From a virus, in the IMG/VR virus record IMGVR_UViG_3300009515_000004, positions 1 through 41,529 of that record: a DNA stretch of 41,529 nucleotides; one strand, 5' to 3'. Positions within the stretch are counted from its first letter, which is position 1. Each line of letters starts with the position of its first letter. The translations under genes were made by a program, and so were the position numbers. A model generated the notes under the pieces. The model saw only the letters and a program-made list of their open reading frames with translations, did not search any database and was not told the DNA's origin. Of the stretch, positions 8,748 through 29,980 are shown one piece after another.

Positions 8748-9568
8748 GCGAGCTGACCACGACGAAGCAGAAGGAGTACTCGATCCAGGATTACCTGATG
8801 TCTCCGACGTTCCACCGGCAGCTCGCCCTGGCCGCGCCTCGTGACGTCCAAGCGGAGCGGATGGCGAGGGCTGTACTCACCCTGGTTCGCGGCGATCCGA
8901 AGCTTGCGAGCTGCACGCCGAAGTCCCTCATGTCGGCGGCGATGTGCTGTGCGCAGACCGGGCTCGAGCCTGGGGCGCTGGGGCACGCCGCAGTGGTTCC
9001 GTACAACGGGATCGCGCAGTGGCAGGCGATGTACAAGGGGCTGCTGCACCTGATCTACAGGTCTGACAAGATCAGCGCGGTGCAGGCCGGCGTCGTGCAC
9101 GAGCTTGACGAGTTCGACTACGACGAAGGGTCGTCACCGTTCGTCCACTGGAAGCGCGGGCTTCGATCGGAGGATGAACGAGGCGATCGGATCGCAGTGT
9201 TCGCCGCGATCGTTCCAAAAGAAGGGCCGTCGATCGTTCGAATCGAGCACATTTCAGAAATCGAACGAATCCGCAAGCAGTACAGCAAGGGCAAGCGGGA
9301 TGACCGACCGTGGGTGACGGAGTACGACGAGATGGCGCGCAAGACCGTGGTCAAGCGCGCAGCCAAGCTCGCGCCGATCAGCGTCGAGATGGGGTTCGCG
9401 ATCGGCTACGACGACCTGGCCGAGGTGGGGAAACCGCAGCTTGCGTACACGGACGAGCCGAAGGTGGAGGAGTACTGCAACCTGACCGTGGGAGACACGG
9501 ACATCGCATGCTCACTCGCACCGGGGCACGAGGGAGAGTGCTCGCCTACTCCTCTTTCGGAGGAATGA
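8744..9568 (+). CDS. recT: RecT-family single-strand annealing protein
   Basis: RecT-like blocks: SLMSAAMCCAQTGLEPG, AAVVPYNG, YKGLLHLIY, MARKTVVKRAAKLAP. Paired with the exonuclease. Confidence 0.9.
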   Translation: MSELTTTKQKEYSIQDYLMSPTFHRQLALAAPRDVQAERMARAVLTLVRGDPKLASCTPKSLMSAAMCCAQTGLEPGALGHAAVVPYNGIAQWQAMYKGLLHLIYRSDKISAVQAGVVHELDEFDYDEGSSPFVHWKRGLRSEDERGDRIAVFAAIVPKEGPSIVRIEHISEIERIRKQYSKGKRDDRPWVTEYDEMARKTVVKRAAKLAPISVEMGFAIGYDDLAEVGKPQLAYTDEPKVEEYCNLTVGDTDIACSLAPGHEGECSPTPLSEE

Positions 9569-10636: not shown

Positions 10637-12289
10637 TCAATCAAACCTTCCCCGGTCGTCGTGCCAGCCGAGAGTCACGACCGTTATCTGAGTAGATGCG
10701 TCGTTCAATGAGCGGCACCTGATTTCCCTGTCAGCGTCTGTTCTGATGGAGATCTCTGCTCCGACGTCGATGCTCGTAGCGGAGAAGAAAGAAAGATGCG
10801 CCAACGGGGCTGCTGTCTGGGAAGGGGAAGCGCTTGTCGTCGCAGTCTCCGTGAATACCACAAGACCCGGTGCTCCGCTCAACGTACCGTTCTCGTTCAC
10901 CATTAGCTGAGTTCGAAGAGACGGAGGGCTGTATGTGAGGGCGATGTCTACCCCGGCTGTGTAATCGGCTGTGTTGGTGAACGACACGATTGGAACGACC
11001 CATCTGAAGTCATCACCATCCTGAAGGAAGTCGAGCATCGACGCTGAGTCGTGCACCCATCCGATTCTTCGGAAGTACGTCCAGTCGGTAAGCTCTGCCG
11101 CGGCCTGGCCGTTCGTGAAGTCAGCGTCATCGTCGAATGCAATTTCGGTTGTCCCGTCTGCCTTCGCAATCAGGAATACACCGTACCATCCGAGGTTCGC
11201 AGCGACGCCGGATACGCGGCCACCTAGCCCATCTCCTTCGACCCACGGATTGCCTGCGCTGATGTCCTTCGTCAGTGCGCTATTCAGTCTCGCATTGATC
11301 AGCGACGGATCCGATGCGTCTCCGATACGAGCTTCACCAGTACCGACTGTCAATATTGAAGCCGAAGTCCGAGTGAGCTGGAGCCCGCCGATGGATCCTC
11401 GAGCCCATGGCGCTTCGATCGGAACGAGGTTCGCCACAGGGTGTGCATCTCTGAGCAGCACGTTCTGGTCGGTGTCGAGATAGATCCTTCCTGCCGTAGC
11501 TGCGGCGGCAGCGGGCAGTGATGCCGTGGCGAACTGAGCGATGTTCTGTTCTGTCCATGTGGTTCCGTTCGAGTACCACAGCCGACCTTCATCGTTTGAG
11601 AAGAACAGTCCGATCCCAAACGCGGCCGCAGCCGGTCGGTTTACATCAATCGCCACGCGGATCTCATCCACGTTGCCGGCGTTGTGCGGGGCTTCCAGCC
11701 TGGACGGCCCTCGCATTTGCGCAAACGTGTCTGCCACGAGCAACGCGCCGTCGCCCGAAACCGTCGTCGCTCCGCTGATTGCCGTCGTTGCGATGGACAC
11801 GGAACCATCCGCTGCAAACGTCAGATACCCGCTTGCTCGCGTCACCTTGTCAGGCAGCTCGAGACTCGGGTAGCCGTCGTCCGTGTCGCGGTCGGTAGAA
11901 GGCTGGCGGATGTACCGCTCTTCCTTGCCGTTGTACTCCTGGGTGAGCATGACCAGTCGATCGAGAGCGTTCTCGACGGAAGCTGCCGGGAACTCCTGGC
12001 TCGGCGTGAGATCGACCTGCTGCGTCTGATCCGTGACGCGGTCGATGTGGACCTCTTCTCCGCTCGCCGGGATGGAAGCCGCCACGAACGTGACTCGCCC
12101 GGTGCTCCCGTTTCCGCCCGTCACCGTGTAGTCAGTCGTTTCAACCTGGACAACATCGACACCCGTAGCAACCGTGCGGATCGTGACGACGATCTCGTCC
12201 GAATCGAAGAACTCGAACGACGTATCGAAGTCCGTCGTGGATCCGTTCCCGTCGAACGTGTCACGAATCGTCGTGGTAGTGACTGTCAT
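10637..12289 (-). CDS. Tail fibre / receptor-binding protein
   Basis: N-terminus FDGNGSTTDFDTSFEFFDSDEIVVT...TDYTVTG...IDRVTDQTQQVDL...ALDRLVMLTQE is the common phage tail-fibre N-terminal module. It occupies the position after the internal-core genes, as T7 gp17 does. ATGA-coupled. Confidence 0.75.
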   Translation of the reverse strand: MTVTTTTIRDTFDGNGSTTDFDTSFEFFDSDEIVVTIRTVATGVDVVQVETTDYTVTGGNGSTGRVTFVAASIPASGEEVHIDRVTDQTQQVDLTPSQEFPAASVENALDRLVMLTQEYNGKEERYIRQPSTDRDTDDGYPSLELPDKVTRASGYLTFAADGSVSIATTAISGATTVSGDGALLVADTFAQMRGPSRLEAPHNAGNVDEIRVAIDVNRPAAAAFGIGLFFSNDEGRLWYSNGTTWTEQNIAQFATASLPAAAAATAGRIYLDTDQNVLLRDAHPVANLVPIEAPWARGSIGGLQLTRTSASILTVGTGEARIGDASDPSLINARLNSALTKDISAGNPWVEGDGLGGRVSGVAANLGWYGVFLIAKADGTTEIAFDDDADFTNGQAAAELTDWTYFRRIGWVHDSASMLDFLQDGDDFRWVVPIVSFTNTADYTAGVDIALTYSPPSLRTQLMVNENGTLSGAPGLVVFTETATTSASPSQTAAPLAHLSFFSATSIDVGAEISIRTDADREIRCRSLNDASTQITVVTLGWHDDRGRFD

Positions 12290-18092: not shown

Positions 18093-21000
18093 TCATCTGG
18101 CCCGGTTTCCCCTCGCTCCCTTCTGCAGCTTCGGGAGGAGTGCGACGAGTGTCATGGGCAGCGGGTCGGCCTGCCGAACGTAGACCTCTCCGTAGGTATC
18201 CCACCCCGCATCGAAATCGACTTCGATGTCGCCTGTGAACAGCCCGGTCAGAGTGCCCATCTCGAGGTCGTGGGGCACGAGGTCAAGCTCAGTCAGATCC
18301 GAGGAGTTCGGCCCGTACGTCCCGCCCATCGTGTTGTCGAGGCGGAGAACGAGGTGATCGATCCGGCCCAGCTTGCCCTGCGCAGACCCCTCCTGATCGG
18401 TGAGCGCGAGCCGCAGCGACTGGAAATCCGATTCGTAGCGGAACCCGATGTGGACCTTCGACGCTGCCTCGTCGAGTGTCAGGACCCCGCCAGCCGACAC
18501 CGTCTGATCGCGCAGCACGTTGCCATCGGCCAGCACATCGACCGTCTCGTTCGCCAGATGCGTGAGGCCATCGATGGAGGTCTTCGCGACGCCGTTGTAG
18601 GTGATGCCGCCGTCCACAAAGAATGCGTCATCAAGCGAATCGTCCGTGGCAAAGATGTCCTCGATGAACTCGATCCAGCGCACGGTCGATCCGTTCACCG
18701 TCCGCCTGACCGAGAGCCAGACCTGATCGTGCTTTCGATTCTCTCGCCCGACACTGGAGGCGTCCCCTGCCGGCGACGGGATCACAGCGACGGATTCAAT
18801 GACGACGTCAGTACCGCCAGCCTCGATTCTCCCCCATCCACTCACGTTCTGATCTCGCATGATTGCGATCGACAATGCCTCGCCATCGACCTTCGTCATG
18901 TACGCGGTGGAGAACGGAGCCGGCGCGTACTCCACCTGTGTGATTCCCGATTCGGTAATTTCTTCGGCCAGGAGCGTCAGATCTTCCGCCAGGTACGAAT
19001 CGGATTCGAATGAATAGCCAAGAGAGAACGCCTTGAGCGCAGTGTCCGAGATGTAGACGACGCGATCGTCCACGACGATTGGACGGATGCGCAGGGATCC
19101 CTTGGCGGTTCTTCCCAGGATCTGGACGTTCGAAGGCGTGATTGCAGACGTGATCGTGGAAGCCTGTACGCTGAACGTGTTCGATGCGGTTCCAACGATC
19201 AGCGTTCTGATCGCTGACATCCACTGGATGTTGTTCACCTCATTCGAGCTGATCACGAACGTCAGCGCGTTGTCGTCGTTGACCGTACTGTCGAGATCTC
19301 CAGCGGATCCCGTCGGCCTGAAATTGAGAAAGTCTGCCGTCACGCTCGCGTACAGCGTGAGTGGGGCTCCTGCGTTCCCACCGAACCAGAGCCTCTGCTC
19401 GTGGAACGACACCGCCGCCGGGAATCCCCTCTCCGCACGAGACGACCAGGCCGGGACTCGCCACAGGGTGGAAGCAGTCGTTCCCCCAAAATTCGATTTT
19501 ACGTTGGCGCGCGCGACAGGGAGCATCCCATCGCCAGAAATCGAGACGACAGCTCCAGTAGCAATCTCAGTGAATGTCGTGGGACGCCCGTTCTTCGTTT
19601 CCGTCAAGTAGAACGAATCCACATCGACGAATCCGATGTAGTAGTCCGTGTTCTCATCGAATCCACCGGGCAGGACATTCGGTGTATCTGGCTTCAATCG
19701 GAACGGACCTTCACCTCCAGTGAAACCATGAGCGACGACGTCGATCACACTCGAGATGATGACTGGAGTCGCAGAGAATGATCCAGTTTCGATGTCAACC
19801 CTGTCCACATCCTCGATTGCATCCTGCTTCGATGTGTAAAACGCAAGCGTGTTCGCATCGACAGCTCGGATCCAGTATTCACTCGTTGTCGTAAGACCAT
19901 CCGGGAGTACTCCGCCACCGTCCACGTTGAGCCGAACGAGCTCTCCGGTATCCATCAAGTGGCCGGTTGCAGTCACCTGCTCCAGGGATACGTTGATCGC
20001 GGACATGTTCGCCGTCTGCACGTCACCAGAGCCGACATCGAAAGTGACTGGATCGATCGAGACGATTCTCGCCCATCCCCAGTTGCCAGTCGATTCCGTG
20101 TCGATTCGGACAGGAGTCCCGACGTCGGCTGGCGTCCAGTATGCCTTTGAACTCGTAATCGTGATGTTGTTCCCGGTGTTCGCAGACGGCTGCATCGTGT
20201 GATCGGCATCCGCATTGATGTCCAGATACGGGCCGTCATCGAACTCAATGACTTCCAGGCTGAACCCTTGGGCAGAGAATCTCGACAGCGTTCGTGGCGC
20301 GTGATTCCTATGCACGAGATACATGACGTCGGCGGAACGATCGAACTGAATCTCGAACAGCTCACTTTCTAGATACGGCGTGTCGATCTCTACGATCGTT
20401 GCCGTGTTCAGGGTGAGGGTGTGGGTTCCGATAGGGCTTGGATCATCGAAGGTGGTGACAGGACCTGTTCTTCCTTCGGCGAGCCGGAAGACATTCCTCG
20501 CATACTCGTCCGTTGGGCGGAGCACCATATCACCATCGCCAGCGCTCGTGATGTTGACGGAGGTGCCGCCTCGTGTTTCAGAGAGTTGAAAGGTGTCGTC
20601 CGATACGACGTTGATCCAGTAGTCCTTCTCAAGCTCGAGTCCGCCTGGGATCGTGCTGCTCGTCTCCAGACGGAACGGACCCATTCTCGATGTGAGGTTG
20701 TGAGAGACTTTTGAAATCGTCTCTGCGGTGGTGGAGACGTCTCCGTCTGAGAATTCAATTGGCTGCGGCTTGCGTAGGAAATACTGTGTTGACGTGTCGA
20801 AGGTTCCGGTCGTCGTAGCTGTGAAAGGACCTGCGTTGTGTGCGTACCCGTGTCCTACAGATAGGAACTCGGACGAGTCCGCATATGCCTGTGTTTCGGC
20901 AATGATGACCAGTGGAGAATGGAGAAGCTTCCCCTCGTTCCTGAAGAACCTCATCTTCAGATGCGAAAGCTCGATGACATACGACTCGTCGTCGGATACG

Positions 21001-21215
21001 ACAAACGGGATCAGCCTGGATACGACTGTAGAATCGGATGCTTCTGAGACGAACCGGGTTCCGGATCGGCGTACCAGCGGACCCTGCGGAGTCACCTGGA
21101 AGTTCTTCAAGAACGCGGCGGCTCGCGCGTAGAGAGCCAGGTCCGTTCTGCCGTAGAGCCTCGGAGAGAACTCCCCGGCGTTGAATGCATTTTGGATCGG
21201 GGAGAATCTAGGCAT
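18093..21215 (-). CDS. Tail tubular protein B / nozzle (T7 gp12-like), with inserted repeat domains
   Basis: N-terminus FSPIQNAFNAGEFSPRLYGRTDLALYARAAAFLKNFQVTPQGPLVRRSGTRFV, and later QFDRSADVMYLVHRNHAPRTLSR, are typical of this family. The ATG at 21215 overlaps the upstream stop by 1 nt. Confidence 0.8.
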   Translation of the reverse strand: MPRFSPIQNAFNAGEFSPRLYGRTDLALYARAAAFLKNFQVTPQGPLVRRSGTRFVSEASDSTVVSRLIPFVVSDDESYVIELSHLKMRFFRNEGKLLHSPLVIIAETQAYADSSEFLSVGHGYAHNAGPFTATTTGTFDTSTQYFLRKPQPIEFSDGDVSTTAETISKVSHNLTSRMGPFRLETSSTIPGGLELEKDYWINVVSDDTFQLSETRGGTSVNITSAGDGDMVLRPTDEYARNVFRLAEGRTGPVTTFDDPSPIGTHTLTLNTATIVEIDTPYLESELFEIQFDRSADVMYLVHRNHAPRTLSRFSAQGFSLEVIEFDDGPYLDINADADHTMQPSANTGNNITITSSKAYWTPADVGTPVRIDTESTGNWGWARIVSIDPVTFDVGSGDVQTANMSAINVSLEQVTATGHLMDTGELVRLNVDGGGVLPDGLTTTSEYWIRAVDANTLAFYTSKQDAIEDVDRVDIETGSFSATPVIISSVIDVVAHGFTGGEGPFRLKPDTPNVLPGGFDENTDYYIGFVDVDSFYLTETKNGRPTTFTEIATGAVVSISGDGMLPVARANVKSNFGGTTASTLWRVPAWSSRAERGFPAAVSFHEQRLWFGGNAGAPLTLYASVTADFLNFRPTGSAGDLDSTVNDDNALTFVISSNEVNNIQWMSAIRTLIVGTASNTFSVQASTITSAITPSNVQILGRTAKGSLRIRPIVVDDRVVYISDTALKAFSLGYSFESDSYLAEDLTLLAEEITESGITQVEYAPAPFSTAYMTKVDGEALSIAIMRDQNVSGWGRIEAGGTDVVIESVAVIPSPAGDASSVGRENRKHDQVWLSVRRTVNGSTVRWIEFIEDIFATDDSLDDAFFVDGGITYNGVAKTSIDGLTHLANETVDVLADGNVLRDQTVSAGGVLTLDEAASKVHIGFRYESDFQSLRLALTDQEGSAQGKLGRIDHLVLRLDNTMGGTYGPNSSDLTELDLVPHDLEMGTLTGLFTGDIEVDFDAGWDTYGEVYVRQADPLPMTLVALLPKLQKGARGNRAR

Positions 21216-23014
21216 CAGTCCCTCTCTCTCGCCCTTCCCCGGGTAGACAACCAAGCACTGAAAGGACGAACCTCTCTTGGCTGCTGTTCTTGACCGTTCG
21301 CTGTAGCAGCCGCTTCAGAACGACTTCTGAGTATTCCGAATACTTCACGGAGCTTCTCGCTCGATCCTGTCACAGCCTCCGCGAGATCCACGGCAATCAG
21401 CGCCGACAGGGTCTGGCGGAAATCGACAGTCATATCCATGGGACTTTCAACGCGCCGAATATACTCGATCTTCAGCGGAGGGAAGATGTTGGTGATAATG
21501 GCCCTCCCCTCGATGATCCAGGAGAGAGCGTACTCATTCTCGACATCCACGACGCGAAGGCAGTCTTTCGGAAGCGGATACATGTATCCGTATTGCCAAG
21601 CCGGTTTTGTCGCAGACGAGGAAATCTCTGCCCTTGTCACCGCGAAAGACCACGGAATCACGCGAAGGAGCTCGTCCCGAAGATCGCAAAAACGATCAGC
21701 GATTAGCCTGGCAGTCTTCTTTGAGTCATTGAGGGAGTCTATTCTTTGCTCCCCGAGAAGGACGAGGGCACCGTTGGCAATCGAAGTCTCGGATGCGGAA
21801 AACTCGTCAGCCGCTGTTGTTGGAACCGTCGCTGGAGGAGGAGCGATTGGTTTCGTGTACGTTATTTCGAGAGAAGCTCCGAGAGCCTCGATCTCTTCAA
21901 TCGTGTTGTCCACCTTCGTAGGGTCGAACGCAATCGCGAACCGACGATCTGTTCCATCGCCGATGATGTCGTAGTTCGGGAGGTTTACGCCGCCGTCATT
22001 GATGATGGCGTCTATCACCTGACCGAGATTGGCAGCAGTGTAGTCAGGCGAAGTTGACGCATCGCCGAAGCTGACCGTGTCGTCCACCAGTCGGAGCACA
22101 GGCATTGTGTACGGGCCGTACAAAAGCGCGGCCAGATGATTCGGTGCGCTGAATGTCGCGTTGGTGTCGTTGACCGTGGGCTGCGGAAGCGAGTAGTCGC
22201 TGAAGATTGCGTGCCTTCCGAATCCGTTCGTCGATCCTTTCATCCCGAATGAAGATCCGCCCTGGGCTTGAACCATTTGCAATTCTATGGTGTTCGTAGC
22301 GTCAGGCCACGTCGCGTCACTTAGTTGATAGATGATGACTTCGTTCGCACTATTGCGGATGTTCCTGGAGAAATTGAAAACGACAGGAACGTCCTGTGCA
22401 GTCGGCAAATCGTTGAATAGAACAGCGTCGGAAGTCTGAATCAGATCTCCGCGTCTCCAGTAGTACGGACCACCCGTCGTGCGATAGGCGTCGATCGTCA
22501 GGCTTGGGTTGGAAGCAAGCGAGCCGATTCGTCGCATCCTGGCCTGAAAGCGGTTGACGTCTTCGACTCCGTTGTGCGCCAATCCGAACATCGGAGCGAC
22601 GTCGCCTTCCGCAGGGTCCATCGTGTAGTAGTAAAGAGTCGGAGCGGGCGGCTCGATCCAGCTCGTCGCGACAGCCGCCGTGGCCCCCCAGGCAGAGGAC
22701 CTGCTCTGAGTTCCGGATGAAACCTGATCCCAGTCGGTGGTCCGACCCCAACCGCTGGCGTCGTTCAGCAGAGCCATCCGGAGGACGAAATTCGCGAATG
22801 CGAGCTTCTTCCAGGTAAGCGTAATCTTGGCACTGTGAATCGTACTGCCGCGTGGAACGTCATCGAGGTTCCAGGCGATGTATGCGGTGGCCTTCCGGCT
22901 GAAGGCGTCGTCGCCGAACTTGAGCGTGGACTCGGTGGAGTTGTCGCCCTGCGGGAGCTTGTCTCGATACCCATACGTGTCGCTGACGGGGTAGTAGACG
23001 CTGGTTGTACTCAC
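21215..23014 (-). CDS. Fusion protein: unknown ~400-aa N-terminal domain plus a C-terminal adaptor (T7 gp11-like) domain
   Basis: GTG start. The C-terminal ~195 aa (SETSIANGALVLLGEQRIDSLNDSKKTARLIADRF...) parallels the whole of ORF 23033..23653. Confidence 0.75.
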   Translation of the reverse strand: MSTTSVYYPVSDTYGYRDKLPQGDNSTESTLKFGDDAFSRKATAYIAWNLDDVPRGSTIHSAKITLTWKKLAFANFVLRMALLNDASGWGRTTDWDQVSSGTQSRSSAWGATAAVATSWIEPPAPTLYYYTMDPAEGDVAPMFGLAHNGVEDVNRFQARMRRIGSLASNPSLTIDAYRTTGGPYYWRRGDLIQTSDAVLFNDLPTAQDVPVVFNFSRNIRNSANEVIIYQLSDATWPDATNTIELQMVQAQGGSSFGMKGSTNGFGRHAIFSDYSLPQPTVNDTNATFSAPNHLAALLYGPYTMPVLRLVDDTVSFGDASTSPDYTAANLGQVIDAIINDGGVNLPNYDIIGDGTDRRFAIAFDPTKVDNTIEEIEALGASLEITYTKPIAPPPATVPTTAADEFSASETSIANGALVLLGEQRIDSLNDSKKTARLIADRFCDLRDELLRVIPWSFAVTRAEISSSATKPAWQYGYMYPLPKDCLRVVDVENEYALSWIIEGRAIITNIFPPLKIEYIRRVESPMDMTVDFRQTLSALIAVDLAEAVTGSSEKLREVFGILRSRSEAAATANGQEQQPREVRPFSAWLSTRGRARERD

Positions 23015-23032
23015 GGTCTTGGCGACTCGTGA

Positions 23033-23653
23033 CTATAGAGGCGTGCCTTGCCCACTAGGGATTCTCCTGGAGAATCCGACCGCGTCTCTTGAGTCGAGCC
23101 ATTCACCGGCTTCGACGAAGGCCGGGCTTGGTTCTTGCCCGTCTGGCGTGCGGGCGGACTGAAGCTTCGACTGATAGATGTTCTGGAGCTCCTGGACCTT
23201 GGTATTCGTTCCGGTGATCGCCTCAGCCAGATCCCACGCGAGGTGGGCGGCGAGGGCCTGGCGGAACAGAACGTCCATCTCCGTGGGATCCGTTACCTGC
23301 TTGGTGTAGACGATCTCGAGGGGCTCCCCGAGGTCCGTCACGATCGCGCGCCCCTCGACGCGCCAGGGCTCGCCGCCGGGGTTGTTGACGTTCAGGAGGC
23401 GAAGCAGGTCTTCGGGGAACGGGTAGAGGTTGTTGAATCCCCATACCGGCTCCTCCGTGTCCTTCGCGATCTGCGCCCTGGCCTGCGCGAAGTTCCACGG
23501 ATGCACGCGCAGCGTGTCGTCGCGCACTTCGTCGAACCGCTCCTTGATCAGCTTGGCGGTCTTCGACGTGCCATCGATCGAGTCAATGCGACGCTCGCCC
23601 AGAAGGACGAGCGCCGCATTGGCAATCGAAGTCTCCGAGGGAGACGAGGCCAT
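23033..23653 (-). CDS. Adaptor / tail tubular protein A (T7 gp11-like)
   Basis: SIANAALVLLGERRIDSIDGTSKTAKLIKERFDEVRDDTLRVHPWNFA...YPFPEDLLRLLNV is the pattern I associate with gp11-type proteins. It lies just upstream of the nozzle gene. Confidence 0.75.
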   Translation of the reverse strand: MASSPSETSIANAALVLLGERRIDSIDGTSKTAKLIKERFDEVRDDTLRVHPWNFAQARAQIAKDTEEPVWGFNNLYPFPEDLLRLLNVNNPGGEPWRVEGRAIVTDLGEPLEIVYTKQVTDPTEMDVLFRQALAAHLAWDLAEAITGTNTKVQELQNIYQSKLQSARTPDGQEPSPAFVEAGEWLDSRDAVGFSRRIPSGQGTPL

Positions 23654-23656
23654 GGA

Positions 23657-24205
23657 TCAGTTTCCACCCGCGGTGTAGACGGCCTCCAGGACGAACTCGG
23701 CACCAACCGTCACCGCAGTTTCCGTGTTCATCGTCAGCACCAGATCCCACAGCTCGACGGGGTCTGCGGAGTAGGATCCTCCACCCTCGTCGGCGAGCTG
23801 CCAGAGGTGCTTTCCGCGGTCCTCGTCTTCGAGTACCGCCAGCGCGAAAAGATCGACACGCGCGATGGCAACGGTGAGGTCGTCGCAGGGTGACGTCGCA
23901 GCGGCGCAGAACAGGTCCAGGTCGATGACCGCCCCTCCGTCCGTGGCGTAAAGACCCATGTCGGAAGTCATTGTCGTTCCGGTCAGAGACGGAGTGCTCA
24001 GGTACAGGTGGATCAGCCGATCGGAACTCTTCATCTGCATGAAGCGAACCTGCTCGTCGTCCGTCACGCCTGCCGCCACTGTCGCCGTGGCGCGCTTGTA
24101 GCGGAGCGTAGCGTGGTCGAGCCCCGGTCCGGCCTTGATGCGAGGATCGTCCTGTGAAGTTCCGCCGACGGTCGTCGTGAAGTGGTCTGAGTAATAATCG
24201 GCCAT
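23657..24205 (-). CDS. Paralogue D of the four-member family (182 aa), unknown virion-module protein
   Basis: MADYYSDHF..., LRYKRATATV, DDEQVRFMQMKSSDRLIHLYLST, GKHLWQLA, DPVELWDL. AAGAGAG SD upstream. Confidence 0.75.
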   Translation of the reverse strand: MADYYSDHFTTTVGGTSQDDPRIKAGPGLDHATLRYKRATATVAAGVTDDEQVRFMQMKSSDRLIHLYLSTPSLTGTTMTSDMGLYATDGGAVIDLDLFCAAATSPCDDLTVAIARVDLFALAVLEDEDRGKHLWQLADEGGGSYSADPVELWDLVLTMNTETAVTVGAEFVLEAVYTAGGN

Positions 24206-24272
24206 TTGATTTCTCTCTTTCTTTCACCCGCGCCTCAGAGCCCCGGACATTCCGCTGACTCGTTGCGCAGAA

Positions 24273-24878
24273 TCAATAATCGTAGTTCGTCCCGCCTTCG
24301 GCCTGGATGTAGTAGAACTCAATGACGAACTCGCCAGTGGCGTTGTTGGTCGGAGTGAACGATACGTCCGTGATGATGTCCACGGCAACCTTCGGGTCTT
24401 CCGAGTACGTCGTCAGTCCGTGCTGGTTCATGTGATCCCAGAGAGGCTTCCCGCGATCATCAGCTCCGAGGGTTCCTCCCTGGAAGAATAGAGACGTCTT
24501 GCGGGACTCTGATGTCATTCCGGCGTTCGTAAAGTAGAACGAACCCAGCCGGGTGCTCGTGCCTCCACTGATGAAATCGTTTTGCAGCTGTGCCGACATG
24601 GTCAAGTTGCCATTGGCCTGCCCTTGGGTCGACAGGAACACGTCGATGATCCGGTCGGAGCTGTGGAACGATACGGTTCGGATGAACTCGCTCTGGTTGT
24701 AGCCAGTCGGGGCTGGTTCGCCTCCTGCCGGCCTGTCTTCCGTGACGAGGTTGATGTATGCGCGCTTGTAGCGAATGATGCCGCCGGACTCACCCATCTC
24801 CCGCTTGAAATCAGGATCCCACGCGAGTAGCGGCTCGCCTGTTTCTGGGCCGAACAGCGATGAGTAGTAGGTCGTCAT
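24273..24878 (-). CDS. Paralogue C (201 aa)
   Basis: Internal ATG of ORF 24273..24971 overlapping the stop of paralogue B (ATGA). MTTYYSSLF, IRYKRAYINL, FIRTVSFHSSDRIIDVFLST, GKPLWDHM. Confidence 0.75.
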   Translation of the reverse strand: MTTYYSSLFGPETGEPLLAWDPDFKREMGESGGIIRYKRAYINLVTEDRPAGGEPAPTGYNQSEFIRTVSFHSSDRIIDVFLSTQGQANGNLTMSAQLQNDFISGGTSTRLGSFYFTNAGMTSESRKTSLFFQGGTLGADDRGKPLWDHMNQHGLTTYSEDPKVAVDIITDVSFTPTNNATGEFVIEFYYIQAEGGTNYDY

Positions 24879-25462
24879 GACACCGCCTTCGTGTACCAGA
24901 GCTGGACGTCGATGTTGCCGTTGATGATACCGGCACCGCCCACATCGGTGATCGTTCCGATGAGATCCCACTCCTGGTGAGGGTTCGTCGAGTAGGACAA
25001 ACCCGTCACGCGATCGTTGGCAATCTCCCAGAGACTCTTTCCAAGATCGTCGAAAGGATCCATGAGTGCCCCGGGATTGGCGAGAACCGACTCTTCCTCG
25101 AGTGTCGATCCGATGTCCACGACGCCGGCCAACATGTCAACAGCATTCGCATGAACGAGGGGGCCGTCGTGAGCGATTCCCTTGAGCGCGATTCCGATGT
25201 CCATGTCAGTGGCTGCCGTCCATGGAGCTTTCGTGCTCACGAGAATCCGTAGCGGAACATCGCCGGATTTCATCGGGAACAACCGCAGAACGTCTCCATC
25301 CTGCACTGGGTCAGTGGCTGGAAGATTGCGCACGACGCACTTCATGTAGCGGACTGGAGCGTACTGCCGCGTCGCTGAAATCTTCAGCGTCGTTCCGTCT
25401 TGCGCGAGCTGCGACGAAGCCGTCGCGCTTCCGAGATACTGGTCCGAGAAGTACGTGGTCAT
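24875..25462 (-). CDS. Paralogue B (195 aa)
   Basis: Internal ATG of ORF 24875..25597 overlapping the stop of paralogue A (ATGA). MTTYFSDQY, VRYMKCVVRNL, DGDVLRLFPMKSGDVPLRILVST, GKSLWEIA, NPHQEWDL. Confidence 0.75.
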   Translation of the reverse strand: MTTYFSDQYLGSATASSQLAQDGTTLKISATRQYAPVRYMKCVVRNLPATDPVQDGDVLRLFPMKSGDVPLRILVSTKAPWTAATDMDIGIALKGIAHDGPLVHANAVDMLAGVVDIGSTLEEESVLANPGALMDPFDDLGKSLWEIANDRVTGLSYSTNPHQEWDLIGTITDVGGAGIINGNIDVQLWYTKAVS

Positions 25463-26031
25463 GTGTAGAACATCGCGACGACGAGTTTTCCACTCGTCGT
25501 GTTCCCAGCAATGTCGGTCGGCGAGACGGTCAGATCCCACTCCTCCTTGGGATCTTGCGTCAGCGCAACACCCGCATCGGCAGCGTGCTCCCAGCACCGC
25601 TTGCCAGCGAGCTCGATCGATCCTCCCGCCACATCATCGGTCGTGACGTTGAAGTCCTGGTACGCGCCGTTCGTTGGATCGATCGTGATGTCTCCGCCAG
25701 ATCCAGAGAATATCTCCGCATCAACGATCGCACCGTCGTGATTCGCGCCCTTCTTGTGAAAACCGATGTACGCGAGCGGACTCGTTCCACCATCGAACTG
25801 ACCATCGGTGCTGAACCGAAGCTCAACGACCCGGTTTCTCGACCGGATTCGAGCCATCCTCACGACGTCGCCATCGCTGAGAGATGCCCCTACGGCGGTG
25901 AGATCGCACTTGCCAATCGCGACACGAAGCGGCGCTCCATTGATGTCATCCGCACCGTGCGATCCTTCATCAATGGTCCGCATGTCACCGTCGCGAGAGT
26001 AGTGATCGCTGTAGTAGGTGATGACTGTCAT
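25459..26031 (-). CDS. Paralogue A (190 aa)
   Basis: MTVITYYSDHY, LRVAIGKCDL, DGDVVRMARIRSRNRVVELRFST, GKRCWEHA, DPKEEWDL. First gene after the capsid-gene hairpin. Confidence 0.75.
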   Translation of the reverse strand: MTVITYYSDHYSRDGDMRTIDEGSHGADDINGAPLRVAIGKCDLTAVGASLSDGDVVRMARIRSRNRVVELRFSTDGQFDGGTSPLAYIGFHKKGANHDGAIVDAEIFSGSGGDITIDPTNGAYQDFNVTTDDVAGGSIELAGKRCWEHAADAGVALTQDPKEEWDLTVSPTDIAGNTTSGKLVVAMFYT

Positions 26032-26078: not shown

Positions 26079-26972
26079 TTACGCGAGCAGTTCCAGAATG
26101 ACGACGCCCTTCTCGTCCATCCGGGTGGCTCCGAGATCGATCTCGTAGCGGACCTGGGTGGCGTGGCGCTTCATCGGAAGGATGTCCATGAAGGCCCGCG
26201 CCTCCTGGCCCATCGCGATCTGCATCGACTTCTTCACCCAGAACGGCAGCTTGATTGCAGCACTCACCAGGCCGAGTCGCTGGCTCTTGTGGAAGTTGAA
26301 GCCGACGAACGTGTCGATCTGACCGTTCACGAGAGCCTTGATCGTGTTGTAGTCGGAACTCGTGACTGTCGAGTTGTCCAGCAGATCCTGGCGCGCCTTG
26401 GCGGTGAGTGCAGCGTGCCAGCTGTTCTCTCCGTCGTCCTCTTCGTTCTCGGCCGCCTCCAGCACCTCGCGTGCTTTCGTCAGGCCACCGATGTCGAGCG
26501 CGGTGCCCGTTCCAGTGGATGCCGTTCCGTCTGCCTCCCACTGGTAGTTGGTCGTGTCGAACGCCGCTGTCCCAGAGCCGTCCACCTCCGTCGCCGCCGT
26601 GGCATCGAATGCGGCGATCAGCGTGTCATCGACACGACGACCCGCCGCTGCAGCCATCGACCGCGTGTACGGGTTGATCGGGTCGTTGAGCAGCCGACGC
26701 TGATCTGCGGGGTCCACGAGGTCGGCGACTTCGTAGGTACGCAGAGTCACCATCCTGCGCCGATGGGGCGTATCGGTGTACTCGGTGTCACCGTGCCTGT
26801 TGGTGACTTCGGACATCGCCGTCGCATCGACCTGATCGTAGAACGCCCGATCTCCGGTGATTTCACCATCGACCATTGCTCCAGTGCGAAGGTTGGAGCC
26901 CATCTGCTGCTGCAGCATGCGTACGCCGGCAGCGAATTTCTTGACAAATGCAGTGGTGATTTCTGTTGACAC
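26079..26972 (-). CDS. Major capsid protein (HK97-fold, T7 gp10-like organisation)
   Basis: GTG start with GGAGG 8 nt upstream. N-terminal FVKKFAAGVRMLQQQMGSNLR...GDRAFYDQVD...DTPHRRRMVTL...DLVDPADQRRLLNDPINPYTRSMAAAAGRRVDDTLIAAF matches the capsid family pattern. It follows the scaffold gene. Confidence 0.85.
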   Translation of the reverse strand: MSTEITTAFVKKFAAGVRMLQQQMGSNLRTGAMVDGEITGDRAFYDQVDATAMSEVTNRHGDTEYTDTPHRRRMVTLRTYEVADLVDPADQRRLLNDPINPYTRSMAAAAGRRVDDTLIAAFDATAATEVDGSGTAAFDTTNYQWEADGTASTGTGTALDIGGLTKAREVLEAAENEEDDGENSWHAALTAKARQDLLDNSTVTSSDYNTIKALVNGQIDTFVGFNFHKSQRLGLVSAAIKLPFWVKKSMQIAMGQEARAFMDILPMKRHATQVRYEIDLGATRMDEKGVVILELLA

Positions 26973-28037: not shown

Positions 28038-28367
28038 TCACTCTCCTTGTCTCGCCAGCGCGAATCCGCGAGCCCGCCTGAACAGGTCCTCGTGCTCCAG
28101 CTCGATGAATCCCATGATCTGGAGCATCACGCGGCGTTTGCCTTCGTTGAAGGCGGTTTGGTGAGAATCTCCCGACTCGTAGGTCGGAAGGCCAATTCTG
28201 CAGAAATCGTACAGGTACGCGAGAACCATCTCGCCCTGTGGCGTTGCGAACGTCGTGGCGAATGCGCTGCGAAGCGACTCCTCGTCGATCAGACTCCGCT
28301 GTTGAATCGCGAGCCAATCGTCCTCTTCCTGGTCGTACCCGTGGCTGACCGGGATCTCGGTGCTCAC
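28038..28367 (-). CDS. Small conserved phage protein, Bbp19-like (109 aa)
   Basis: GTGA overlap with the portal stop. FATPQGEMVLAYLYDFCR...AFNEGKRRVMLQIMGFI resembles, from memory, the Bbp19-type motif (G..VL.dL..fc ... eGrR.V.L.I). Confidence 0.6.
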   Translation of the reverse strand: MSTEIPVSHGYDQEEDDWLAIQQRSLIDEESLRSAFATTFATPQGEMVLAYLYDFCRIGLPTYESGDSHQTAFNEGKRRVMLQIMGFIELEHEDLFRRARGFALARQGE

Positions 28368-29980
28368 TGGTTCCCGCCGACACCGTCAAGCGCCGGGATC
28401 AGCTTCGAAGCGCCCTCGGCGACGGCCAAGCCCTCGGCGAGTTGCTGCTGCTGCGCTTGCGCCTCGGCCTGCGCGCGGCGGATCTCGATGACCTCTGCCT
28501 TCGGGCGCATGATCTTCGCAGGAACACCGTTGCCTTCGAAGATCGCGCGCGCGGCGGAGTCCATGTTCACGTTGTCCACGACGCCAGGATCGACGGTTGC
28601 CATGGCGGCAATCGCCTGGAACGAATCCAGGATCGCCTGGGATTCACTCGCCTTCTGCGCGCGCGCGACGGGGGAGACGTACTCGATCTTGATCTCCTGG
28701 CCCTGCAAGAAATCGGGAGCCTGTGGGAAGTTCGGGCTCCGCGACAGGATCCCGTAGACCCGCTCGATCATCGGCTCGAGGAGTTCGGTCTGCATCCGGC
28801 CGAGCACCGGAGAGAGGATCCGCTGCGAGAGCCTCGCGAGCTCGATCACCTGGGTGGCCGTCATGCGCGGATCCTGGAATGCCTGAATGATCTCCGAGTG
28901 GTACGCCTTGCGGATCAGCTGCGTCTTCGTCTCGATCACGAGGTCGGAGATGTCGAACCGGCCGCGATGCTCCAGGTAGCGGACGGGATCGAGGCGCGAT
29001 CCGGTGGGCCGAACGGTGATCCGCGCGGAGGGCGTGATGCGAAGCTGGCTGCCCGGCATGACGCCATCGTCTTCGACGAGCAGCGGCGGGTCGGCTGCCT
29101 TCTCGGCATTGCGGATGTAGGTACGCCAGATGGCGTTCAGCATCTTCGCGTCGGCCAGGGAGTCGATGCCAGGCCCGCGCCCGTACAGCTCGCCGGAGTC
29201 TTTGTTCCAGCGAGACACCATGTACGGGTTCTCGAAGTAGCCGCCCTCGCTGACGACCTTCTTGTCGTCGAGCGAGATGTAGATGCTCGCCCAGGGCATT
29301 CCCTTCGCATCGATCCGGCCGGGAAGCGGCTGTGGATTGCGGCGCACGAGGTGCAGGAACTCGTGCTCATTGTTGACGTGGTTCGCCTCGACGTCCTTGG
29401 CGGATCGCGGGACGGCCTCCTTCCCGAACTGCTTGACTGCCTGCCACGCCAGAAGTTTGAACTTCCGGTAGACCACGGTGATCCGCCCGCTGTGGTCCTC
29501 GTCGATGAACAGCTCCGACAGCGGCCTCGAGGAGAATCGCGCACCGAATCCCGGCTCGTCCTCGACGAAGATTCCGCTGGTTCCGAAGGCGACGAGGTCC
29601 GTGTAGACCTCGTGCATGTTGGTGTTGAAGGCAGACTCCGGCCGCCTGAAGCTGTTCAGCATCTCCTGCTCGACTTCATCGAGCCAGAGAACAGCCTCAT
29701 CGACCTCGTTGAGCTGGGAACGCTGGAACCGTAGGTCGAACCAGTCGGTGGCTGGATTCGTCAGCAAGCTGTGGAGCGCGGCAGCCAGCAGGTTCGTGGC
29801 GTCACGCGCGGTCGTGTCGTAGATCTTGATCTGCCGCTGGGTACCCGGCTGGCGCTTCGTGTTGAAGTCACGGCGTCCGAGCGTGTGATCGGCCACCTCC
29901 TGCCAGTGGTTCTCCCACTCGGTGCGGCCGTCACGCAGCTTCTCCCAGTGGGATGAAATCTCTTCGATCAGGTCCGGCAT
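28364..29980 (-). CDS. Portal (head-to-tail connector, T7 gp8-type)
   Basis: N-terminus RTEWENHWQEVADHTLGRRDF...IYDTTARDATNLLAAALHSLLTNPATDWFDLRF is characteristic of podovirus connector proteins. 538 aa, following the terminase genes. Confidence 0.85.
   Translation of the reverse strand: MPDLIEEISSHWEKLRDGRTEWENHWQEVADHTLGRRDFNTKRQPGTQRQIKIYDTTARDATNLLAAALHSLLTNPATDWFDLRFQRSQLNEVDEAVLWLDEVEQEMLNSFRRPESAFNTNMHEVYTDLVAFGTSGIFVEDEPGFGARFSSRPLSELFIDEDHSGRITVVYRKFKLLAWQAVKQFGKEAVPRSAKDVEANHVNNEHEFLHLVRRNPQPLPGRIDAKGMPWASIYISLDDKKVVSEGGYFENPYMVSRWNKDSGELYGRGPGIDSLADAKMLNAIWRTYIRNAEKAADPPLLVEDDGVMPGSQLRITPSARITVRPTGSRLDPVRYLEHRGRFDISDLVIETKTQLIRKAYHSEIIQAFQDPRMTATQVIELARLSQRILSPVLGRMQTELLEPMIERVYGILSRSPNFPQAPDFLQGQEIKIEYVSPVARAQKASESQAILDSFQAIAAMATVDPGVVDNVNMDSAARAIFEGNGVPAKIMRPKAEVIEIRRAQAEAQAQQQQLAEGLAVAEGASKLIPALDGVGGNQ

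What the first reader, a model, noticed from the sequence alone, without database searches (positions are those of the whole stretch)
21215..23653. Tandem duplication of the gp11-like adaptor gene, with a ~400-aa N-terminal domain on the second copy
ORF 23033..23653 (206 aa) and the C-terminal ~195 aa of ORF 21215..23014 are clearly homologous. Compare SETSIANAALVLLGERRIDSIDGTSKTAKLIKERFDEVRDDTLRVHPWNFA with SETSIANGALVLLGEQRIDSLNDSKKTARLIADRFCDLRDELLRVIPWSFA.

Patches are even conserved at the DNA level: AGAAGGACGAG...TTGGCAATCGAAGTCTC occurs at 23601..23635 and at 21756..21790.

The second copy carries an unrecognised N-terminal domain (about 21800..23014, visibly lower GC). Its stop overlaps the nozzle start by 1 nt.

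T7-like tails use a single gp11 dodecamer. Two paralogues suggest either a hetero-oligomeric or stacked adaptor, or an adaptor-anchored appendage such as a side fibre or enzyme displayed from the neck.
Basis: partly seen in the sequence, partly recalled or inferred. Interest (0 to 1): 0.7.

Follow-up and report, generated by a model that had tools for sequence, protein, structure and literature searches.

The report
Duplicated phage tail adaptor, one lectin-tipped
An uncultured T7-like phage, and every close relative checked, carries two neighbouring copies of the ring protein that joins head to tail; the second copy usually has a fast-changing domain that may bind sugars, an unusual though not unprecedented tail design.

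Summary
A1 (23033..23653, 206 aa) and the last ~190 aa of A2 (21215..23014, 599 aa) are 48% identical (E 1e-57). Both match tail-adaptor profiles. The A2 domain models at pLDDT 93-98 and matches solved gp11-type adaptors (Carin-1, LME-1, T7).

The fusion is not a frameshift artefact. Five independent metagenomic proteins have the same N-extension, proline-rich linker and adaptor layout.

The duplication marks a clade. All 11 distinct contigs whose first adaptor is at least 51% identical to A1, with enough downstream DNA, carry a second copy. More than 100 loci at 45% or less carry one, as does pelagiphage HTVC010P. A1 and A2 form sister clades, so there was one old duplication.

The N-extension is almost an orphan and evolves fast (39% identity where A1 is 80%). 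It varies from 0 to about 525 aa and gives sub-threshold DNRLRE/CBM96 matches.

My best reading is that A1 and A2 both build the neck, probably as stacked rings (portal, A1, A2, nozzle), and that A2 displays a glycan-binding module. An alternating 6+6 ring is not excluded.

Dual adaptor genes are published for PhiGT1 and Bcep22-like phages, but those arose by recombination. This is a new variant of a known kind.

The parts
23033..23653 (-). A1: adaptor paralogue 1 (206 aa), a plain gp11-type tail adaptor with a conserved C-terminal tail ...GFSRRIPSGQGTPL
   Evidence: phrog_394 tail protein, E 5.4e-46. PDB sequence hits: 8ck1_E connector E 5e-6 and 9efk_T E 0.015. About 50 metagenomic orthologue clusters at 53-80% identity, all about 203-208 aa. 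The C-terminal tail is conserved to the last residue in these orthologues.
23015..23032 (-). 18-nt A1-A2 spacer. The A1 TAG stop (23033..23035) is in frame with A2. The A2 start is GTG with no clear Shine-Dalgarno sequence.
   Evidence: Sequence read directly.
21215..23014 (-). A2: adaptor paralogue 2 (599 aa) = N-extension + Pro-rich linker + adaptor domain
   Evidence: Single uninterrupted ORF. Homologues with the same architecture: P0065, P0066, P0067, P0069, P0072.
21851..23014 (-). A2 N-extension (aa 1-388), a predicted mostly-beta module. Its first ~120 aa resemble the DNRLRE/CBM96 beta-sandwich; it ends in the conserved strand LGASLEITYTK.
   Evidence: NF033679 DNRLRE_dom E 5e-4 to 1.5e-3 over aa 25-121. 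Relatives: P0065 E 4.6e-8 (33.3 bits, cut-off 34) and P0072 aa 35-209 against profile 21-161. Pfam CBM96 E 0.15. In the AF2 model the beta strands at 44-83, 155-235 and 358-387 fall in 10-residue blocks averaging pLDDT about 52-87, and the rest is below 50. Only one distant homologue among 1.84 billion representatives.
22652..22942 (-). Segment of A2 (aa 25-121) that matches the DNRLRE domain profile (positions 14-114 of 164)
   Evidence: All matches are below the curated cut-off.
21800..21850 (-). Pro-rich linker (aa 389-405, PIAPPPATVPTTAADEF) between the extension and the adaptor domain
   Evidence: Sequence. Pro-rich linkers occupy the same position in all N-extended relatives.
21215..21799 (-). 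A2 adaptor domain (aa 406-599), with the A2-type short charged C-terminus ...WLSTRGRARERD
   Evidence: 48% identical to A1. phrog_394 E 2.6e-38. AF2 pLDDT 93-98 over aa 410-570. Foldseek against solved adaptors, E 1e-10 to 1e-5, TM (target) 0.56-0.80, including T7 gp11 7box/7ey7/6r21.
18093..21215 (-). Nozzle (gp12-like tail tubular protein B, 1040 aa). Its ATG overlaps the A2 stop by 1 nt.
   Evidence: phrog_376 tail protein, E 8e-182. Junction sequence.
23601..23635 (.). DNA patch conserved between A1 and A2 (partner at 21756..21790); encodes SETSIAN..ALVLL
   Evidence: 31/35 identical, with a 17-nt exact run.
21756..21790 (.). Partner of the conserved DNA patch, at the start of the A2 adaptor domain
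10637..12289 (-). Context: separate tail fibre with a T7 gp17-like N-terminal anchor (aa 1-131)
   Evidence: phrog_1640, phrog_13893, phrog_6518 and others, E 7e-24 to 1e-9, all limited to the first ~130 aa.
28364..29980 (-). Context: portal (head-tail connector)
   Evidence: phrog_332 E 3.9e-139. 38-39% identical to HTVC010P-type pelagiphage portals.

Best explanation
A1 and A2 descend from one old tandem duplication of the gp11-type tail adaptor gene, and both are structural parts of the neck.

Preferred geometry: two coaxial rings in gene order, portal, A1, A2, nozzle. A1 keeps the ancestral portal-facing surface. A2 has changed that surface so that it docks under A1, and it keeps the ancestral nozzle-facing surface.

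Role of the extension: through a proline-rich linker at its N-terminus, each A2 subunit holds a mostly-beta, DNRLRE/CBM96-like module outside the tail. This fast-evolving, swappable module most likely binds a host surface polysaccharide. It would act as an accessory adhesin alongside the separate T7-type tail fibre.

Shown: homology, adaptor fold, a single fused ORF, conservation across the clade, a single origin of the duplication, and rapid change and exchange of the extension.

Inferred: incorporation into the virion, ring geometry, copy number and glycan binding.
For: Real paralogues with an adaptor fold:
- 48% identity, E 1e-57.
- phrog_394 matches for both genes.
- AF2 pLDDT 93-98 for the A2 adaptor domain, and Foldseek hits to in-situ adaptor structures including T7 gp11.

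Conserved in a clade, so under selection:
- An adaptor HMM census finds two copies in the window, L001/L002, L003, L004/L005, L006, L007 and L009.
- It also finds two copies in L087, L088, L091 and L093.
- It finds one copy in every locus at 45% identity or less: 38 metagenome loci with more than 3 kb downstream and L010-L085.
- All 109 matching phage GenBank records show a single place each. HTVC010P has one adaptor directly before its nozzle.

One duplication: in the NJ tree the A1 and A2 clades are sisters nested among single-copy adaptors.

The second adaptor domain is needed by itself: L001 keeps a bare 192-aa A2, and that copy is nested among the N-extended A2s.

Geometry:
- In a comparison of 44 A1, 9 A2 and 115 single-copy adaptor sequences, the differences between the two paralogues are concentrated at the end of helix alpha4 and the C-terminus. 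A1 D171 equals the ancestral D, while A2 has N574.
- The A1 C-terminus reads R-E plus a long tail; the A2 C-terminus reads R-G plus a short charged end.
- The N-terminal helix and loop SETSIANxALxLLGERRI is the same in both.
- In solved tails the alpha4 ends and C-terminal tails contact the portal clip (bioRxiv 10.64898/2026.02.16.706137), and residues around 19-24 contact the nozzle (PMC10575957).
- Pa223 shows two coaxial dodecameric rings of one adaptor, differing only in the last 14 residues (bioRxiv 10.1101/2025.06.11.659172).
- Gene order is A1, A2, nozzle, and the A2 stop overlaps the nozzle start.

The extension as a binding module:
- DNRLRE_dom hits in 5 of 7 family members at E up to 1, best 1.5e-8. 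P0065 scores 33.3 bits against a cut-off of 34.
- The DNRLRE domain is related to CBM96, an alginate-binding beta-sandwich (PMC9971899).
- No catalytic family is detected.
- Between the window and L003 the extension is 39% identical while A1 is 80% identical.
- Extension length ranges from 0 to about 525 aa. L087 and L093 carry extensions that the family HMM does not recognise. L009 adds a He_PIG Ig domain.
- A separate gp17-type fibre exists, so the extension is an addition, not the only receptor-binding protein.
Against: - No virion data exist; everything about assembly is inferred.
- The long A1 C-terminal tail is not universal. L093 (= P0051) has an A1-type copy ending ...DAREEGSW and still carries a second, extended copy.
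- Both paralogues keep the same nozzle-side motif. This also fits a mixed ring in which both touch the nozzle.
- Mapping of contact residues from other phages rests on the order of secondary-structure elements, not on a superposition.
- Every DNRLRE match is below the curated cut-off. The L004/L006/L007 subfamily, L088, L091 and L095 give no match.
- A profile of the extensions finds nothing in PDB sequences.
- The AF2 model of the extension is mostly low confidence, so its weak Foldseek hits to beta-sandwich CBMs and adhesins (E above 0.1) carry little weight.
Confidence: 0.45

Rival explanations
1. Alternating hetero-dodecamer. A1 and A2 occupy alternate positions in one 12-subunit ring. This hard-wires into two genes the two non-equivalent adaptor positions that T7-like tails already have where the 12-fold adaptor meets the 6-fold nozzle and fibres. 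Six A2 extensions would then alternate with six fibres.
For: - In P-SCSP1u, each fibre trimer and each nozzle subunit contacts two adjacent, non-equivalent adaptor subunits (PMC10575957).
- Solved T7, E1004, Kp7 and SU10 tails list two adaptor chains each, of slightly different modelled length; I read these as two conformers of one protein (inference).
- Paralogues of a homo-oligomer commonly stay able to co-assemble (general knowledge).
- Both copies keep identical clade-specific core residues and the same N-terminal nozzle-side motif.
- This path needs no ancestor with a double ring.
- The weak GTG start of A2 could mean fewer copies.
Against: - The systematic differences between A1 and A2 lie on the portal-facing side (alpha4 end, C-terminus). 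In a single ring that environment is 12-fold equivalent. The differences do not lie on the 6-fold nozzle and fibre side, where divergence would be expected.
- No hetero-dodecameric adaptor was found in the literature search.
Confidence: 0.28
2. A2 is in the neck, in either geometry, but its N-extension is structural rather than an adhesin. It would form a collar that braces the neck against the capsid or serves as a docking platform for the fibre or another tail protein.
For: - Adaptor upper domains and C-terminal hooks contact the capsid in solved podophages (bioRxiv 10.64898/2026.02.16.706137; PMC10575957).
- The DNRLRE assignment is sub-threshold.
- Relatives often carry an extra 170-230 aa gene between A1 and A2 that could be a partner protein.
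Against: - A structural brace should be conserved. Instead the extension is the fastest-changing part of the locus (39% against 80%).
- It is replaced by unrelated sequence in L087 and L093 and is absent in L001.
- This pattern is typical of host-recognition modules.
Confidence: 0.15
3. The extension is an enzyme, for example a depolymerase, lyase or esterase, displayed from the neck.
For: DNRLRE/CBM96 modules are usually attached to polysaccharide lyases (PMC9971899). About 230 aa (122-355) of the extension match nothing and could hide a catalytic domain.
Against: - No catalytic family appears in Pfam, NCBIfam, PHROGs or PDB sequence searches.
- L009 lacks most of the central segment yet keeps the DNRLRE-like frame.
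- The predicted structure shows short beta strands, not a beta-helix.
Confidence: 0.07
4. The second copy is a redundant or decaying duplicate, or the long ORF is an assembly or frameshift artefact.
For: In one relative (L091) the A2 gene is split into two ORFs. In L088 the extension lies in a separate ORF.
Against: - A2 is intact and keeps all invariant adaptor residues.
- It is conserved in at least 11 independent contigs. Both paralogue clades are old.
- The fused layout recurs in five independently assembled proteins.
Confidence: 0.03

Closest known systems
T7 gp11 / 'tail tubular protein A' adaptors (T7, P-SCSP1u gp22, KP32 TTPA, Carin-1 connector, LME-1 orf17, HTVC010P gp12)
   Same: Same fold (Foldseek E 1e-10 to 1e-5, TM 0.56-0.80). 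Same size of the adaptor domain, about 190 aa. Same gene position between capsid genes and the gp12-like nozzle.
   Different: Those phages have one adaptor gene; here there are two paralogues. One of them carries a 405-aa N-terminal extension. Pfam's models do not detect either copy.
Dual tubeA podoviruses: Sulfitobacter phage PhiGT1 family and Bcep22-like phages (PMC10386132)
   Same: Two adjacent adaptor (tubeA) homologues upstream of tubeB (the nozzle). The authors argue that recurrence implies selective value.
   Different: There the two copies are 'extremely divergent' and were joined by recombination between ancient lineages, explicitly not by duplication. Here the copies are 48% identical sister paralogues from a tandem duplication inside one lineage. 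The passages of that paper read here do not mention an N-terminal extension.
Pseudomonas phage Pa223 (Bruynoghevirus) double head-to-tail adaptor ring (bioRxiv 10.1101/2025.06.11.659172)
   Same: Two coaxial dodecameric adaptor rings between portal and tail hub. The two rings differ only in the last 14 residues: a portal-binding coil in one, and a helix at the ring-ring interface in the other. This parallels the C-terminal divergence of A1 and A2.
   Different: Pa223 uses one gene for both rings and has an SU10-type adaptor. Here there are two genes. The ring geometry is inferred, not observed. One copy bears a large extension.
Adaptor fusions with extra domains (Vibrio phage VP2 Q6RCF4, 741 aa, Ig-like, phrog_9239; metagenomic A0A6J5LNM8 with ChiA1_BD)
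   Same: A gp11-type adaptor domain covalently joined to putative binding modules.
   Different: In phrog_9239 the adaptor is at the N-terminus and the extra domains follow it (profile positions 2-192 of 741). It is also the only adaptor in those genomes (one place per record). Here the extension precedes the adaptor domain and a plain paralogue is kept alongside.
DNRLRE domain / CBM96 (NF033679, PF24517; PMC9971899)
   Same: Sub-threshold profile matches over the first ~100-175 aa of several extensions. The predicted character is all-beta. CBM96 is a beta-sandwich that binds alginate.
   Different: Scores are below the curated cut-offs. Most members have a ~200-aa insertion or addition. No binding data exist.

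Membership tests
gp11-type tail adaptor (tail tubular protein A) | Significant match to adaptor sequence profiles | tested here: met
   phrog_394: A1 E 5.4e-46, A2 E 2.6e-38. tblastn hits annotated 'tail tubular protein A' or 'gp11' in pelagiphages, YeP4-6 and BcepC6B. No Pfam family matched.
gp11-type tail adaptor (tail tubular protein A) | Helix-bundle plus beta-sandwich fold of solved adaptors | tested here: met
   A2 aa 410-570 has pLDDT 93-98. Foldseek: 8ck1_E E 1.3e-10, 9efk E 1.5e-10, T7 gp11 7box_M E 5.7e-6, TM (target) 0.56-0.80. A1 was not modelled; its membership is inferred from 48% identity and from PDB sequence hits.
gp11-type tail adaptor (tail tubular protein A) | Gene lies between the capsid genes and the gp12-like nozzle | tested here: met
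   Order on the minus strand: MCP 26079..26972, four small paralogues, A1, A2, nozzle 18093..21215 (phrog_376, E 8e-182).
gp11-type tail adaptor (tail tubular protein A) | Forms a dodecameric ring between portal and nozzle in the virion | not testable with these tools
   No multimer prediction and no virion data are available.
Dual-tubeA podoviruses (PhiGT1-like, Bcep22-like) | Two adjacent adaptor homologues upstream of the nozzle | tested here: met
Dual-tubeA podoviruses (PhiGT1-like, Bcep22-like) | The two copies come from anciently diverged lineages joined by recombination | tested here: not met
   A1 and A2 are 48% identical and form sister clades nested among single-copy adaptors. The origin here is a tandem duplication. 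The lower GC3 of A2 (0.595 against 0.81) leaves room for later exchange with a relative.
Dual-tubeA podoviruses (PhiGT1-like, Bcep22-like) | Both copies present in the virion proteome | not testable with these tools
   The phage is uncultured and known only from a metagenome.
Pa223-type double adaptor ring | Two coaxial dodecameric rings | not testable with these tools
   Inferred only.
Pa223-type double adaptor ring | Ring-specific difference confined to the C-terminal ~14 residues | tested here: inconclusive
   Differences between the paralogues cluster at the alpha4 end and the C-terminus. However, L093/P0051 is an A1-type copy without the long tail.
DNRLRE domain / CBM96 | Profile score above the curated cut-off | tested here: not met
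   Window 18.6-20.1 bits, P0065 33.3 bits, P0072 19.6 bits and L003 16 bits, against a cut-off of 34. Pfam CBM96 12.4 bits against 26. The matches are consistent in position, so a distant relationship is likely but not established.
DNRLRE domain / CBM96 | Beta-sandwich fold | tested here: inconclusive
   The AF2 model shows beta strands at moderate confidence in parts of aa 44-235 and 358-387, and is below 50 elsewhere. The extension profile finds nothing in PDB sequences.
DNRLRE domain / CBM96 | Binds a polysaccharide | not testable with these tools
   Needs a binding experiment.
Adaptor-plus-extension fusions of VP2 type (phrog_9239) | Adaptor domain at the N-terminus, extension C-terminal, and the sole adaptor in the genome | tested here: not met
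   Here the extension is N-terminal and a plain paralogue coexists. The phrog_9239 match covers only profile positions 2-192.

The most novel reading that the evidence does not exclude
A1 and A2 form an obligate two-gene adaptor. This could be a stacked double ring or an alternating 6+6 ring that encodes the 12-to-6 symmetry step in the genome. The A2 N-terminus would be a general, exchangeable socket from which this phage clade displays receptor-binding modules directly from the neck. That would be a class of receptor-binding protein distinct from fibres and spikes, with cargo swapped or lost between relatives.
Probability: 0.3. Interest if true: 0.65.

Novelty: new variant of a known kind. 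Interest (0 to 1): 0.5.

Why it matters
The adaptor ring of T7-like phages is usually treated as an invariant single-gene part that joins the portal to the nozzle and docks the fibres. A whole uncultured clade keeps two diverged copies, so the neck can be rebuilt by gene duplication as well as by the lineage fusions described for PhiGT1 and Bcep22. The clade comprises about 50 orthologue clusters, and marine metagenomes are among its sources.

The second copy is a natural fusion scaffold. Its N-terminus tolerates cargo from 0 to about 525 aa of unrelated sequence. If the cargo is a glycan-binding module, host range in these phages would be set partly at the neck. Annotation pipelines that look only at fibres and spikes would miss that determinant.

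It also suggests a position for engineering display on podovirus tails.

Tried and rejected
- Single-sequence AF2 of A2 failed (mean pLDDT 30.7).
- A word-indexed search with the N-extension returned only the query itself.
- A search with a 7-sequence profile returned only two proteins.
- The exhaustive HMMER search found one real distant homologue, P0065. It also found a spurious repeat-driven hit, P0064, a Gram-positive-type surface repeat protein with 8 short stretches.
- The search for related loci with A1 alone found nothing in viral contigs; an alignment was needed.
The proteins were then registered through the listing of cluster members.
- A profile of the extensions against PDB sequences gave no hit.
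- By eye, the L087 and L093 extensions looked like LamG/ConA-type lectins. Pfam and NCBIfam gave no support, so this is not claimed.
- The short similarity between A1 108-123 (LGEPLEIVYTKQVTDP) and A2 378-393 (LGASLEITYTKPIAPP) has E 0.1. It is treated as chance, not as a relic of a third adaptor domain.
- The N-terminus of A2 (MSTTSVYYPVSDTYGY) superficially resembles the starts of the four upstream paralogues, but BLAST shows no relation.
- The genome-contig scan found no prophage relative, so no host can be named.
- A look-up of the window's own contig record failed.
- A literature search for hetero-dodecameric adaptors found nothing.

Full report
**1. Observation**

On the minus strand, ORF 23033..23653 (A1, 206 aa) is followed after 18 nt by ORF 21215..23014 (A2, 599 aa, GTG start). 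BLASTP aligns A1 residues 4-189 with A2 residues 406-592 at 48% identity, 70% positives and one gap, E 1e-57.

The A2 stop and the start of the next gene overlap as TGATG. No stop codon or internal start codon separates the two halves of A2.

GC content is 63.3% in A1 (GC3 0.81) and 57.3% in the A2 N-terminal part (GC3 0.68). It is 54.7% in the A2 adaptor domain (GC3 0.595) and 57.7% in the nozzle. The lower GC is therefore real but is not specific to the extra domain.

**2. What the two genes are**

Both proteins match PHROG 394 'tail protein' over their whole adaptor length (E 5e-46 and 3e-38). The next gene matches PHROG 376 (E 8e-182), the gp12-like nozzle. Pfam and NCBIfam have no model that detects the adaptor domains.

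Against PDB sequences, both copies hit the 'connector protein' of phage Carin-1 (8ck1_E, E about 5e-6). A1 also hits LME-1 orf17. In phage GenBank records the A2 adaptor domain hits genes annotated tail tubular protein A or gp11, in HTVC010P-type pelagiphages, Yersinia phages YeP4-6 and Burkholderia phage BcepC6B. There is always one place per record: 109 records, 109 places.

An AF2 model built from a 37-sequence alignment gives pLDDT 93-98 for A2 residues 410-570. Foldseek places it among solved in-situ adaptors: Carin-1, LME-1, PhiM1, KP32 TTPA, P-SCSP1u, HRP29 and T7 gp11 (E 1e-10 to 1e-5, target TM 0.56-0.80).

The rest of the module is a standard T7-like layout:
- terminase;
- portal (phrog_332);
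- scaffold;
- major capsid protein (PF19821);
- A1, A2 and the nozzle;
- internal virion proteins;
- a fibre whose first 130 aa match gp17-type anchors.

The nearest cultured phages are HTVC010P-type pelagiphages, with only 38-39% portal identity.

**3. The duplication defines a clade**

A1 has about 50 metagenomic orthologue clusters at 53-80% identity, all 203-208 aa. I fetched their contigs, 80 IMG/VR loci and 80 metagenome loci. I scanned all six frames of these with an HMM of the adaptor domain.

Every locus whose first adaptor is at least 51% identical to A1, and that has enough downstream DNA, contains a second adaptor domain. These loci are the window, L001/L002, L003, L004/L005, L006, L007, L009, L087, L088, L091 and L093. 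Every locus at 45% identity or less has one adaptor. That group includes 38 metagenome loci with more than 3 kb of downstream sequence. HTVC010P has one adaptor immediately before its nozzle.

In a neighbour-joining tree the A1 copies and the A2 copies form two sister clades nested among single-copy adaptors, and the A2 branches are longer. This indicates one old duplication followed by divergence. No prophage relative exists among GTDB species representatives, so the host is unknown.

**4. The N-terminal extension**

The fused layout recurs in independently assembled proteins: P0065 (638 aa), P0066 (614), P0067 (606), P0069 (631) and P0072 (505). It is therefore not a frameshift artefact.

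Extension length varies widely:
- 0 aa in L001/L002, where the second copy is a bare 192-aa adaptor;
- about 295 aa in L093;
- about 323 aa in L087;
- 353 aa in L009;
- 405 aa in the window;
- 416-445 aa in L004, L006, L003 and P0065;
- 519-526 aa in L007 and L095.

The bare copy of L001 is nested among extended A2s in the tree. Loss of the extension is therefore more likely than repeated gain. It also follows that the second adaptor domain is retained for its own sake.

The window's extension is almost an orphan. The word-indexed search found only the query itself. An exhaustive HMMER scan of 1.84 billion representatives found one true homologue, P0065 at 30% identity.

Between the window and its closest relative L003, A1 is 80% identical but the extension only 39%.

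A 7-member alignment shows a shared frame:
- an N-terminal strand motif (..IPxGxxIxxAKL..);
- a variable middle, absent in L009;
- a C-terminal block ending LGxxLxITY;
- a Pro-rich linker;
- then SETSIAN, the first residues of the adaptor domain.

NCBIfam's DNRLRE_dom (NF033679) matches 5 of 7 members at E up to 1, best E 1.5e-8. The positions are consistent: window aa 25-121 against profile 14-114, P0065 at 33.3 bits against a cut-off of 34, and P0072 aa 35-209 against profile 21-161. Pfam CBM96 matches only at E 0.15.

The DNRLRE domain is related to CBM96, an alginate-binding beta-sandwich found on polysaccharide lyases, S-layer proteins and similar proteins (PMC9971899).

Evidence against a firm assignment:
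- All scores are below the curated cut-offs.
- Several subfamilies give no match.
- The extension profile finds nothing in PDB sequences.
- The AF2 model of this part is only patchily confident, although it is all-beta where it is confident.

L087 and L093 carry extensions that the family HMM does not recognise. L009 adds a He_PIG Ig domain. No catalytic family was detected anywhere.

**5. How it most likely works**

It is shown that there are two diverged, conserved adaptor paralogues and that one carries a rapidly changing, exchangeable, probably lectin-like N-terminal module on a Pro-rich linker. The rest is inferred.

I compared 44 A1, 9 A2 and 115 single-copy adaptors column by column. 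Both paralogues share the same clade-specific core and an identical N-terminal helix and loop (SETSIANxALxLLGERRI).

The positions that are conserved but different between A1 and A2 are few:
- Y97 in A1 against W in A2, in the beta-sandwich;
- V153 against L;
- D171 against N574 at the end of helix alpha4, where A1 keeps the ancestral D;
- R-E190 against R-G594;
- the C-terminal tail. Most A1s end ...GFxRRxPxGxGTPL, conserved to the last residue. A2s end in a short charged R-G-(R/E)....

In the PhiXacm4-11 tail, the portal clip contacts the ends of the alpha4 helices and the C-terminal tails (bioRxiv 10.64898/2026.02.16.706137). In P-SCSP1u the nozzle contacts adaptor residues 19-24 (PMC10575957). 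By this mapping, which rests on the order of secondary-structure elements and is an inference, A2 has changed its portal-facing side and kept its nozzle-facing side.

That is the pattern expected for stacked rings in the order portal, A1, A2, nozzle. It parallels Pa223, where one adaptor protein forms two coaxial dodecamers that differ only in their last 14 residues (bioRxiv 10.1101/2025.06.11.659172). Gene order and the A2/nozzle start-stop overlap agree with this.

The main rival is an alternating 6+6 ring. It would fix in two genes the two non-equivalent adaptor positions that already exist under each fibre and nozzle subunit (PMC10575957). It is evolutionarily easy, and it fits the shared nozzle-side motif. 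It does not explain why divergence sits on the 12-fold portal side.

One caveat applies to the stacking argument. L093 (= P0051) has an A1-type copy without the long tail and still has a second copy.

For the extension, several observations fit an accessory host-glycan adhesin better than a structural collar or an enzyme:
- its rate of change;
- its exchange and loss between relatives;
- the lectin-like hints;
- the absence of catalytic signatures;
- the presence of a separate gp17-type fibre.

**6. Comparison with what is known**

Single-gene gp11 adaptors are the rule. Two adjacent adaptor (tubeA) genes are, however, already described in Sulfitobacter phage PhiGT1 and its Rhizobiales relatives, and independently in Bcep22-like phages (PMC10386132). 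In those cases the copies are 'extremely divergent' and were brought together by recombination of ancient lineages. The authors state that the arrangement did not arise by duplication and specialization.

The present clade is therefore a further, independent origin, this time by tandem duplication. It has the added feature of N-terminal cargo on the second copy.

Adaptors fused to Ig-like or chitin-binding domains also exist, for example Vibrio phage VP2 (741 aa, phrog_9239) and metagenomic entries in BFVD. In the phrog_9239 family the extension is C-terminal, and VP2-type genomes show a single adaptor match.

**7. Verdict**

The finding is a new variant of a known kind. It is of moderate interest to phage structural biology, and it is testable by multimer prediction, co-expression and binding assays.

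Noticed in passing
window 23657..26031 (-): 25459..26031, about 24875..25462, about 24273..24878, 23657..24205: Four tandem paralogous genes of about 180-200 aa lie between the major capsid gene and A1. All start M..(T)YYSDH/YFSDQ and are 22-28% identical to one another (E 1e-4 to 1e-11). They are homologous to the single gene after the capsid gene in HTVC010P (gp10, 26% identity). Relatives L001 and L004 have one copy and L003 has at least three. No Pfam, PHROG or PDB sequence match was found. They evolve fast (35-52% identity to L003, against 80% for A1). A capsid decoration or cement protein array is possible.
   Followed up: partly
window 23015..23035; L001 4650..4664: The A1 stop codon is TAG and is in frame with A2: six sense codons then GTG in the window, three codons then ATG in L001. 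Read-through would therefore give an A1-A2 fusion. Both loci without an intervening gene show this, but the chance expectation is 1 in 9 and there is no other support.
   Followed up: partly
window 21215..21799 versus 23033..23653: Third-position GC of the A2 adaptor domain (0.595) is far below that of A1 (0.81), the portal (0.86) and the capsid gene (0.78). The nozzle (0.70) and the fibre (0.68) are intermediate. This could reflect exchange of the tail-distal module with a lower-GC relative, or different expression.
   Followed up: partly
L003 2617..3309; L004 8615..9127; L006 about 3150..3741; L007 about 8340..9012; L009 about 520..1171: Most relatives have an extra 170-230 aa gene between A1 and A2. 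It belongs to a weakly related family (L006 against L007 39% identical; others E about 1e-3). The window and L001 have no homologue. L007 has a further 155-aa ORF there. Function unknown; it may be a neck or assembly partner of A2.
   Followed up: partly
L091 4729..6608; L088 3114..5356: In L091 the A2 gene is split into two overlapping ORFs: the extension HMM matches positions 1-270 in one ORF and 275-401 plus the adaptor domain in the other. This is either a frameshift or a sequencing error. In L088 the extension lies in a separate ORF about 400 nt upstream of the adaptor-domain ORF.
   Followed up: no
window A2 aa 378-393 (21836..21883) and A1 aa 108-123: The last strand of the extension (LGASLEITYTKPIAPP) resembles a strand of the adaptor beta-sandwich in A1 (LGEPLEIVYTKQVTDP): 9/16 identical, E 0.1. 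This is probably chance.
   Followed up: partly
L093 2360..2938 (= P0051); P0052: A sub-branch of A1-type adaptors lacks the long GTPL tail (ending ...DAREEGSW or ...DAREDGNQ). L093 nevertheless carries a second, N-extended copy with an unrelated extension.
   Followed up: partly
window 10637..12289 (-): In the tail fibre gene, only the first ~130 aa match known families (the gp17-type anchor). The remaining ~420 aa match nothing in PHROGs.
   Followed up: no
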